From NCBI RefSeq assembly GCF_056712565.1, contig NZ_CM160072.1: DNA of 64,000 nucleotides; one strand, written 5' to 3'. Both the position numbers and the translations under genes were made by a program. Below the pieces are notes generated by a model, which saw only the letters and a program-made list of their open reading frames with translations, did not search any database and had not been told where the DNA came from. This document shows positions 15,398 to 15,734 of this stretch, one piece after another (the stretch's first letter is position 1; each line of letters begins with the position of its first letter).

Positions 15398-15734
15398 GTC
15401 ATTCTCCTTAAGTTAACTAACCCGGTACTTAAGCCAGGGTATACTTGTAATTTTCTTACGGTGCACTGTACTGCTTTTACGAGCTTGCGAAAACTGTAAA
15501 CGCTTATCCACCCGTGCGATTACGGTAAAAGCGCGCAAAGTGCGGCAAAACTGATAAAAAAATCATCGTTTTCCATTGGGTAAAAATCTGACACTGATCA
15601 TGTTATGAAAAAAAATAACAACTTTTTTATCTGCTTTTGTCATTAACACAGCACACAGGCGTAATATCTGACAAAACTGCATTTCGATTTCTTTCAGAGC
15701 GGAAATCGTCATTACCCGTGAGTCTCTTTACATC

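What the first reader, a model, noticed from the sequence alone, without database searches (positions are those of the whole stretch)
15420..15460. Possible HexR-type half-palindrome near the zwf start
Seen in sequence: TTGTAATTTTCTTACGG lies about 40 bp upstream of the zwf start codon. Its left half matches the TGTAAT half-site I associate with HexR operators; the right half is degenerate. hexR is the divergent neighbour. This is a weak, inference-only call.
Basis: inference. Interest (0 to 1): 0.2.

Follow-up and report, generated by a model that had tools for sequence, protein, structure and literature searches.

The report
HexR repressor site at zwf promoter
The short sequence is E. coli's slightly degraded copy of a conserved binding site for the sugar-metabolism repressor HexR at the start of the zwf transcript, a link already predicted by comparative genomics, so it is real but ordinary.

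Summary
The window is E. coli chromosome. zwf lies at 13922-15397 (-) and hexR/yebK at 15735-16604 (+), divergent. The reported string is present. Its core, TGTAATTTTCTTACG (15446-15460), starts 48 nt from the zwf ATG.

- **Match to the motif.** It has one mismatch to TGTAA-N5-TTACA. It scores 13.8 bits on a matrix built from 16 RegPrecise HexR sites of Vibrio. That is rank 3 of 63,986 window positions, about 1% chance per intergenic region, and the bottom edge of the training range.
- **Decisive evidence is comparative.** All 79 other Enterobacterales zwf-hexR loci carry a HexR-type palindrome at the same place. In 43 it is the perfect TGTAATTTTATTACA. It always sits 3-4 nt downstream of the conserved zwf -10 hexamer, while its distance to the ATG varies from 41 to 200 nt.
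- **E. coli variant.** It differs at the only two commonly variable positions (A10C, A15G). These lie in the half nearest the -10.
- **Likely mechanism.** HexR bound across about -1 to +14 blocks RNA polymerase, and KDPG releases it. SoxS/MarA/Rob activate from the upstream soxbox.
- **Prior knowledge.** Published regulon reconstructions already call HexR the local regulator of zwf in Enterobacteriales. E. coli YebK binds a yebK-promoter fragment in a KDPG-sensitive way.

Binding to this exact site is untested. Verdict: supported, already known, low interest.

The parts
15446..15460 (.). HexR-type operator O1, TGTAATTTTCTTACG. It is the E. coli variant of the conserved palindrome TGTAATTTTATTACA and covers about -1 to +14 of the zwf promoter.
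   Evidence: sequence and matrix score. (present at the orthologous place in 79/79 related loci). (identical in K-12 and in 5406/5419 E. coli genomes).
15465..15470 (-). zwf -10 hexamer TACAGT (TACATT or TAGAGT in other genera). It ends 3-4 nt upstream of the operator in the zwf sense.
   Evidence: Conserved block. Fixed 3-4 nt gap to the operator in 70 loci. Position follows from the soxbox/-35 geometry in PMC9638938. Inferred, not mapped here.
15488..15493 (-). zwf -35 element TTTTCG (non-optimal), 7 bp downstream of the soxbox and 17 bp upstream of the -10.
   Evidence: PMC9638938 states that the zwf soxbox lies 7 bp upstream of a non-optimal -35 element. Sequence read.
15501..15520 (-). 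soxbox/marbox ATCGCACGGGTGGATAAGCG, the activator site for SoxS, MarA and Rob. It contains the GCAC 'A site'.
   Evidence: Sequence. Soxbox elements described in PMC9638938. The 20-mer itself is recalled from the marbox literature.
15457..15459 (-). Inferred zwf transcription start, giving a leader of 60-62 nt.
   Evidence: Inference from the position of the -10, plus my recollection of primer-extension mapping (Rowley & Wolf 1991, not held). The TSS list of PMC3415461 does not contain this start.
13922..15397 (-). zwf, glucose-6-phosphate dehydrogenase, the regulated gene.
15735..16604 (+). hexR (yebK), an RpiR-family HTH+SIS regulator and the presumed binder of the operator.
   Evidence: PMC4488073 reports KDPG-sensitive DNA binding.
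15586..15625 (+). Second conserved block. It holds the second-best matrix hit of the spacer (15606-15620 TGAAAAAAAATAACA, 14.5 bits) and the inverted repeat TGTTAT-N8-ATAACA (15601-15620). It is centred about -60 of the hexR promoter. It may be an auxiliary HexR site or an UP-like A-tract; its role is unresolved.
   Evidence: Spacing classes.
15662..15673 (+). hexR promoter -10 TAATAT (15662-15667) and mapped hexR transcription start (15673).
   Evidence: PMC3415461 supplement gives the yebK TSS at 1,934,614, 62 nt before the ATG, with its upstream sequence. -10 conservation as TAATAT/TATATT.

Best explanation
15446-15460 is the HexR (YebK) operator of the E. coli zwf promoter. It is a 15-bp pseudo-palindrome (TGTAAT-TTT-CTTACG) that starts 4 nt downstream of the zwf -10 hexamer. 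It spans the transcription start and the first ~14 transcribed bases. A HexR dimer bound there would occlude RNA polymerase or block open-complex formation and escape, and so repress zwf. When the Entner-Doudoroff intermediate KDPG accumulates, it binds the SIS domain of HexR, HexR leaves the DNA, and zwf is derepressed. This input is independent of the SoxS/MarA/Rob activators, which act from the soxbox at about -42 to -61.

Shown here: the sequence, its matrix score, and its strict conservation and fixed geometry relative to the core promoter across Enterobacterales.

Taken from the literature: KDPG-sensitive DNA binding by E. coli YebK, the repression-when-downstream rule, and the assignment of zwf to the HexR regulon.

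Inferred: that HexR binds this exact 15-mer in E. coli, and that the two substitutions in the -10-proximal half make it a weaker operator than in most relatives.
For: 1. **Motif.** One mismatch to TGTAA-N5-TTACA. Score 13.8 bits on a matrix from 16 RegPrecise HexR sites, rank 3 of 63,986 window positions. About 1% chance of such a hit in the 337-bp spacer.

2. **Orthology.** All 79 zwf-hexR loci from other Enterobacterales have the element at the same place. 43 read TGTAATTTTATTACA, and one reads TGTAATTAAATTACA, identical to the Vibrio consensus. Positions 2-5, 7, 11, 12 and 14 are invariant. Only positions 10 and 15 vary often, and those are the two where E. coli differs.

3. **Flanks vary freely.** The 3 bases between the -10 and the operator, and the bases after it, change from genus to genus, so the conservation is specific to the element.

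4. **Promoter-locked geometry.** The gap to the -10 is 3 nt in 66 loci and 4 nt in 4 loci. The distance to the zwf ATG ranges from 41 to 200 nt.

5. **The regulator is next door.** hexR is the divergent neighbour in every locus.

6. **Literature.**
   - The HexR regulon was reconstructed for E. coli and 11 of 12 Enterobacteriales genomes.
   - E. coli 6His-YebK shifts a yebK-promoter fragment and KDPG reverses the shift (PMC4488073).
   - HexR sites downstream of a promoter are associated with repression (PMC11906056).

7. **Fixed within the species.** The 47 bp covering operator and -10 are identical in 5406 of 5419 E. coli genomes and in K-12.
Against: - The score is at the very bottom of the known-site range: only 1 of 16 leave-one-out training sites scores lower. 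The C at position 10 is absent from the Vibrio training set.
- A score this low would occur about 26 times by chance in a whole E. coli genome.
- No experiment in the held literature shows HexR binding to this 15-mer or zwf derepression in an E. coli hexR mutant. The EMSA probe of PMC4488073 is undefined because the primers are not available.
- The zwf transcription start is inferred. The genome-wide TSS list of PMC3415461 gives for zwf only a start 568 nt upstream, inside hexR.
- The conserved block also contains core-promoter sequence, so part of its conservation could be unrelated to HexR.
- The original comparative paper (Leyn et al. 2011) and the RegPrecise entry itself could not be read.
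Confidence: 0.75

Rival explanations
1. Decayed relic. The element descends from a HexR operator, but the two substitutions (A10C, A15G) have abolished useful binding in E. coli. It persists only because it overlaps the transcription start and initial transcribed sequence of zwf. E. coli zwf would then be controlled essentially by SoxS/MarA/Rob and growth rate.
For: The E. coli variant is among the lowest-scoring forms: 13.8 bits against 22.8 for the majority, and only 2 of 79 loci score lower. All the loss is in one half-site, with half scores of 12.0 and 0.9 bits. The held literature holds no demonstration of HexR control of zwf in E. coli.
Against: The same variant occurs in 9 of the 79 fetched loci: the E. 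coli representative plus Kluyvera, Yokenella, a Pluralibacter sp., Superficieibacter and two unnamed Enterobacteriaceae. The single-change forms occur in another 16 loci. The core GTAA/TTAC of the weak half is always kept. That pattern looks like tolerated variation at soft positions rather than decay. TTACG ends occur in 3 of 16 accepted Vibrio sites. hexR is intact and E. coli HexR still binds DNA from this region.
Confidence: 0.15
2. Not a protein site at all. The conserved palindrome is a feature of the zwf core promoter or of the mRNA. One example would be a 5'-terminal stem-loop of the transcript that affects stability or translation.
For: The element lies at about +1 to +14 of the transcript and can form a small hairpin: -1.4 kcal/mol in E. 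coli and -2.2 kcal/mol for the perfect palindrome. It is contiguous with the conserved -10 block.
Against: The hairpin is AU-rich and marginal. The whole leader folds no better than shuffles (z = 0.10). The variants never compensate: changes at positions 10, 13 and 15 occur without the matching change at 6, 3 and 1. That is what independent half-sites of a protein operator give, and it is not what a stem gives. The arms equal the HexR consensus derived in unrelated taxa. No Rfam family matches.
Confidence: 0.05
3. The site is bound by a different regulator with a similar half-site, for example another RpiR-family paralogue of E. coli, rather than by HexR.
For: RpiR-family relatives use very similar 15-bp sites. 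Pseudomonas RccR binds TGTAGT-N3-ACTACA (PMC5489143). The HexR protein also shows weaker similarity to the AlsR/MurR models.
Against: hexR is the divergent neighbour in all 79 loci. The arms match the HexR consensus (TGTAAT), not the RccR one (TGTAGT). Regulon reconstructions assign zwf to HexR.
Confidence: 0.05

Closest known systems
RegPrecise HexR regulog of Enterobacteriales (Leyn et al. 2011; Leyn et al. 2016, PMC5343134)
   Same: Same regulator, same target (zwf), same comparative-genomics logic. The literature states that HexR is a local regulator of zwf in this order and that hexR is usually autoregulated.
   Different: Nothing substantive differs. I could not open the database entry or the 2011 paper to confirm that this exact 15-mer is the listed site.
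HexR operators of Vibrio and Shewanella (consensus TGTAATTAAATTACA)
   Same: Same 15-bp architecture and the same arms. The Cedecea orthologue equals the consensus exactly. The ending TTACG is also found there.
   Different: In those taxa HexR is a global regulator with dozens of sites and acts as both activator and repressor. Here it is a single local operator. The E. coli copy carries C at position 10, which is absent from the 16 Vibrio sites.
[quoted passage not shown]
   Same: Same protein family, same effector (KDPG), same divergent zwf/hexR layout, and repression in the apo form (PMC5489143).
   Different: The spacing differs. The enterobacterial element is TTGT-N9-ACA(G/A), so the Pseudomonas pattern is not matched. 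The Pseudomonas regulon also includes edd, glk, gap-1 and eda.
RccR, the HexR paralogue of Pseudomonas
   Same: It binds 15-bp pseudo-palindromes TGTAGT-N3-ACTACA that overlap transcription starts, and it responds to KDPG.
   Different: Different half-site (TGTAGT) and different targets (aceE, aceA, pckA). RccR also uses a long-linker 28-bp site whose affinity rises with KDPG. Nothing comparable is shown for E. coli HexR.

Membership tests
Gammaproteobacterial HexR operator (RegPrecise-type motif TGTAAT-N3-ATTACA) | 15-bp pseudo-palindrome with TGTAA...TTACA arms and an A/T-rich centre | tested here: met
   TGTAATTTTCTTACG has 9 of 10 arm positions. It scores 13.8 bits on a matrix from 16 published sites, at the lower edge of the leave-one-out range of 13.5-24.6.
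Gammaproteobacterial HexR operator (RegPrecise-type motif TGTAAT-N3-ATTACA) | Lies in the upstream region of a core HexR-regulon gene (zwf, edd, eda, glk, pykA, hexR) | tested here: met
   It lies 48 nt upstream of zwf, in the zwf-hexR spacer. zwf and hexR are the most widely conserved regulon members.
Gammaproteobacterial HexR operator (RegPrecise-type motif TGTAAT-N3-ATTACA) | A HexR orthologue is encoded in the genome | tested here: met
   NF008451 'transcriptional regulator HexR' at 566 bits against a cutoff of 296. The gene is annotated hexR in E. coli RefSeq.
Gammaproteobacterial HexR operator (RegPrecise-type motif TGTAAT-N3-ATTACA) | Site conserved at the orthologous position in related genomes (the consistency check of comparative regulon inference) | tested here: met
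   Present in 79 of 79 loci, and 52 of them score at least 20 bits. The invariant positions are 2-5, 7, 11, 12 and 14, while the flanks vary.
Gammaproteobacterial HexR operator (RegPrecise-type motif TGTAAT-N3-ATTACA) | Position relative to the promoter is compatible with the mode of regulation (repression when at or downstream of the core promoter) | tested here: inconclusive
   The operator starts 3-4 nt after the conserved -10 in 70 loci. The core promoter was placed from the soxbox/-35 rule of PMC9638938. The zwf start itself is not in the TSS list consulted, so the -1 to +14 assignment is an inference.
Gammaproteobacterial HexR operator (RegPrecise-type motif TGTAAT-N3-ATTACA) | Bound by HexR in vitro or in vivo and released by KDPG | not testable with these tools
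   Indirect evidence only. E. coli 6His-YebK shifts a 'yebK promoter' PCR fragment and 3 mM KDPG reverses the shift (PMC4488073). The extent of the fragment is unknown.
Gammaproteobacterial HexR operator (RegPrecise-type motif TGTAAT-N3-ATTACA) | Target gene derepressed in a hexR mutant | not testable with these tools
   No E. coli data were found in the held literature.
Pseudomonas-type HexR operator (TTGT-N7-8-ACAA) | TTGT and ACAA separated by 7-8 bp | tested here: not met
   E. coli reads TTGT-AATTTTCTT-ACGG and the majority form reads TTGT-AATTTTATT-ACA(G/A), so the spacer is 9 bp. Consensus taken from PMC5489143.

The most novel reading that the evidence does not exclude
The zwf-hexR control region may contain a second HexR-related element that works together with the operator. 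This is the strongly conserved block 15586-15625. It carries a TGTAAT-type half-site followed by an A8 tract, and in this strain it forms the inverted repeat TGTTAT-N8-ATAACA. It is centred about -60 of the mapped hexR promoter.

Across 65 Enterobacteriaceae loci the distance between the operator and this block falls into classes of 150, 158-162, 169-173 and 182 bp, which are steps of about one helical turn. That would fit a phase-dependent contact, either a loop between two HexR-bound sites or HexR acting as a class-I-type activator of its own promoter. It would recall the dual-linker sites of the paralogue RccR.

The block may equally be an UP-like element of the hexR promoter with no link to HexR.
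Probability: 0.15. Interest if true: 0.4.

Novelty: already known. Interest (0 to 1): 0.15.

Why it matters
Zwf sets the entry of glucose-6-phosphate into the oxidative pentose-phosphate and Entner-Doudoroff routes, and it supplies NADPH. A KDPG-sensing repressor at its promoter adds a metabolic input to the well-known oxidative-stress input (SoxS/MarA/Rob). That matters for metabolic engineering and for understanding lag-phase behaviour linked to yebK.

The link has already been predicted, so the value here is confirmation. Two modest additions come with it. First, E. coli carries one of the weakest natural versions of the operator. Second, the operator is locked to the -10 element over order-level divergence.

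Tried and rejected
1. **Wrong spacing in my first pattern search.** TGTAATN5TTACA is a 16-mer. It missed the site and gave only chance-level hits. It was corrected.

2. **Best matrix hit of the window rejected.** 25316-25330 (TGTAATAAAAATACA, 19.3 bits) looked like a second HexR target upstream of yebB. It lies inside the small ORF yobI and reads CGTAATAAAAATATA in K-12 and in another strain. It is not conserved even within E. coli, so I treat it as chance.

3. **No HexR site over the hexR -10 in E. coli.** 15660-15674 scores -11.7 bits. The conserved feature there is the -10 itself (TAATAT/TATATT). Only Pectobacterium, Serratia and Rahnella have a HexR-like 15-mer there (CGTAGTATATTTTCA, 12.5 bits).

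4. **Terminator, not a site.** 13804-13818 (TGTAATAAAAAAAGC) in the zwf-edd spacer is the T-tract of a probable terminator on the minus strand.

5. **RNA readings.** The RNA-hairpin reading of the operator is weak, and there is no Rfam family.

6. **Documents that could not be obtained.**
   - Leyn et al. 2011.
   - Rowley & Wolf 1991.
   - The EMSA primer table of PMC4488073.
   - The scaffold table of PMC9638938.

7. **Genome-wide TSS list.** PMC3415461 gave the hexR start but not the canonical zwf start.

8. **No experimental data found.** There are no ChIP-exo or knock-out data for E. coli HexR in the held library.

Full report
**What the window is.** The 501 bp around the finding are 100% identical to many E. 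coli chromosomes, where the flanking genes are annotated zwf and hexR. ORF listing and NCBIfam scans give two genes. zwf is at 13922-15397 on the minus strand (TIGR00871, 682 bits). hexR/yebK is at 15735-16604 on the plus strand (NF008451 'transcriptional regulator HexR', 566 bits). They are divergent and separated by 337 bp (15398-15734).

**The observation.** TTGTAATTTTCTTACGG is at 15445-15461. The informative core is the 15-mer TGTAATTTTCTTACG at 15446-15460, whose near edge is 48 nt from the zwf ATG.
- The HexR consensus quoted for Vibrio from RegPrecise is TGTAATTAAATTACA (PMC11906056).
- A supplement of that paper lists 16 predicted sites with their scores.
- Against TGTAA-N5-TTACA the E. 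coli site has one mismatch.
- Its ending, TTACG, is found in 3 of the 16 listed sites.
- My first search used a wrong 16-bp spacing and should be ignored.

**Is it more than chance?** I built a palindrome-symmetrised matrix from the 16 sites.
- The candidate scores 13.8 bits, rank 3 of 63,986 positions in the window.
- At the composition of the spacer, the chance of one such hit in 337 bp is about 1%: 0.0105 expected, and 201 of 20,000 shuffles reach the score.
- In leave-one-out scoring the 16 training sites range from 13.5 to 24.6 bits, so the candidate sits at the bottom edge.
- The main penalty (-5 bits) is for C at position 10, which the small Vibrio set never shows.
- At genome scale about 26 chance hits of this strength would be expected, so the score alone would not be convincing.

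**Comparative evidence.** A scan of one genome per species with the HexR protein returned 80 Enterobacterales loci.
- Arrangement: 79 of the 80 hold the start of zwf, and all 79 keep the divergent zwf-hexR arrangement.
- Presence: every one of the 79 carries a HexR-type 15-mer at the orthologous position.

| 15-mer | Loci | Bits |
|---|---|---|
| TGTAATTTTATTACA | 43 | 22.8 |
| TGTAATTTTCTTACA | 10 | 16.3 |
| TGTAATTTTCTTACG (the E. coli form) | 9 | 13.8 |
| TGTAATTTTATTACG | 6 | 20.3 |
| TGTAATTTTATTTCA | 4 | 19.1 |
| TGTAATTTAATTACA | 2 | 24.9 |
| TGTAATTAAATTACA (equal to the Vibrio consensus) | 1 | 24.9 |
| Four other forms (TGTAATTTTGTTACA, CGTAACTTTATTACA, TGTAATTTTCTTTCA, TGTAATTTTCTTTCG) | 1 each | 19.5, 17.0, 12.6, 10.1 |

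- Which positions vary: positions 2-5, 7, 11, 12 and 14 never vary. Only positions 10 and 15 vary often, and these are the two at which E. coli departs from the perfect palindrome.
- Specificity: the three bases between the element and the upstream conserved hexamer, and the bases after the element, differ from genus to genus. The conservation is therefore specific to the element and is not a by-product of low divergence.
- Within E. coli: the operator plus -10 region is identical in 5406 of 5419 complete genomes and in a K-12 derivative.

**Position relative to the promoter.**
- In the zwf sense the conserved block reads CGTAAAAGCAGTACAGTGCAC-[operator].
- PMC9638938 states that the zwf soxbox lies 7 bp upstream of a non-optimal -35 element.
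- I place the soxbox at ATCGCACGGGTGGATAAGCG (15520-15501). The 20-mer is recalled from the marbox literature, and its GCAC element fits that paper.
- This puts the -35 at TTTTCG (15493-15488) and, 17 bp later, the -10 at TACAGT (15470-15465). The -10 is the conserved hexamer, which reads TACATT or TAGAGT in other genera.
- A start 6-8 nt further on falls at 15457-15459. That agrees with my recollection of a 62-nt leader from primer extension (Rowley & Wolf 1991, not held).
- The operator then covers about -1 to +14.
- The gap between the -10 and the operator is 3 nt in 66 loci and 4 nt in 4 loci, whereas the distance to the zwf ATG ranges from 41 to 200 nt. The element is tied to the promoter and not to the ribosome-binding region.
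- Caveat: the genome-wide TSS table of PMC3415461 lists for zwf only a start 568 nt upstream of the ATG, inside hexR, and not this promoter. The start is therefore inferred.

**Mechanism.** A repressor dimer on -1 to +14 overlaps the RNA polymerase footprint, which is the classical way to block initiation.
- The Vibrio study summarises the rule that HexR sites downstream of a promoter go with repression and sites upstream go with activation.
- In Pseudomonas, HexR represses in the apo form and is released by KDPG through its SIS domain (PMC5489143).
- For E. coli itself, 6His-YebK shifts a PCR fragment called the yebK promoter, and 3 mM KDPG reverses the shift (PMC4488073). The primers could not be retrieved, so it is unknown whether that fragment contained 15446-15460.
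- Regulon reconstructions state that HexR in Enterobacteriales is a local regulator of zwf (PMC5343134; PMC3223726). They cover E. coli and 11 of 12 Enterobacteriales genomes.

**Rivals.**
1. A non-functional relic. The E. coli form is one of the weakest, and all the loss is in the -10-proximal half (half scores 12.0 and 0.9 bits). However, the same form or the single-change forms occur in 25 of the 79 loci, the GTAA/TTAC core is always kept, and TTACG ends are accepted elsewhere.
2. A 5'-terminal RNA hairpin. It would be worth only -1.4 kcal/mol, and the leader folds no better than shuffles. The natural variants are never compensatory. There is no Rfam match.
3. Another RpiR-family protein. 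The paralogue RccR uses TGTAGT arms, not TGTAAT, and hexR is the invariable neighbour.

**Other things seen.**
- The second-best hit of the spacer, 15606-15620 (TGAAAAAAAATAACA, 14.5 bits), lies in a strongly conserved block at 15586-15625. In most genera this block reads GATCATGTAATGAAAAAAAACAACA.
- The hexR start mapped in PMC3415461 corresponds to window 15673, with the -10 at TAATAT 15662-15667. The block is therefore centred near -60 of the hexR promoter. It could be an auxiliary HexR site or an UP-like A-tract.
- The distance from the operator to this block falls into classes of 150, 158-162, 169-173 and 182 bp, and circular concentration peaks at a period of 10.5-11.5 bp. This suggests helical phasing, but it rests on few independent indel events.
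- The best hit of the whole window (25316-25330) was followed up and rejected.

**Verdict.** This is the E. coli copy of the conserved HexR operator of the zwf promoter. It is an already predicted, ordinary regulatory site, and direct binding to this exact site has not been tested in the literature I could reach.

Noticed in passing
window 15586-15625 (hit at 15606-15620): Strongly conserved block upstream of the hexR promoter, centred about -60 from the mapped hexR start at 15673. It has a TGTAAT-type half-site plus an A8 tract, and in this strain forms the inverted repeat TGTTAT-N8-ATAACA. It is the second-best HexR-matrix hit of the spacer (14.5 bits here, 11.8 bits in most genera). Its role is unresolved: an auxiliary HexR site, an UP-like element or another factor.
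   Followed up: partly
window 15446-15625 and loci L001-L073: The distance between the zwf operator and the conserved block falls into classes of 150, 158-162, 169-173 and 182 bp across 65 loci. These are steps of about one helical turn, and Rayleigh concentration peaks at a period of 10.5-11.5 bp. One such step is a 10-bp indel within E. coli itself (window/K-12 versus L001/E. albertii). There are few independent events, so this is only suggestive.
   Followed up: partly
window 15683-15709: Conserved inverted repeat in the hexR leader (+11 to +37 of the mapped start). It reads CGATTTC-N10-GAAATCG, and in other genera ACGATTTCAC-N8-(A/G)TGAAATCGT. 77% of cells pair, against at most 56% in slid controls, and all 9 pairs show some two-sided changes. 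RNAalifold predicts nothing and there is no Rfam hit. It could be a leader hairpin or a protein site.
   Followed up: partly
window 25316-25330: The best HexR-matrix hit of the whole window is TGTAATAAAAATACA (19.3 bits), in the ruvA-yebB spacer. It lies inside the small ORF yobI (minus strand) and reads CGTAATAAAAATATA in K-12 and strain RM11911, so it is not conserved within E. coli. I judge it a chance match.
   Followed up: yes
window about 15965 (minus strand), inside hexR: The genome-wide TSS table of PMC3415461 assigns to zwf a start 568 nt upstream of its ATG (MG1655 1,934,906, 12 reads). That is an antisense start within the hexR coding region. The canonical soxbox promoter start is not listed there.
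   Followed up: no
loci L066-L080 (Pectobacterium, Serratia, Rahnella), 60-79 bp upstream of hexR: An invariant HexR-like 15-mer, CGTAGTATATTTTCA (12.5 bits), overlaps the hexR -10 region in these outgroup genera. The E. coli counterpart (15660-15674) scores -11.7 bits. This may be an autoregulatory operator that is absent in Enterobacteriaceae. Rahnella also has TGTAATTTTATGACA (15.9 bits) in mid-spacer.
   Followed up: partly
loci L007, L027, L028: Three loci have enlarged zwf-hexR spacers (534, 497 and 509 bp). In Kluyvera (L027, L028) the insertion lies between the operator and the zwf ATG, giving an operator-to-ATG distance of 188-200 nt. In Citrobacter sp. wls619 (L007) it lies in the hexR leader. 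The operator/-10 module is untouched in all three.
   Followed up: no
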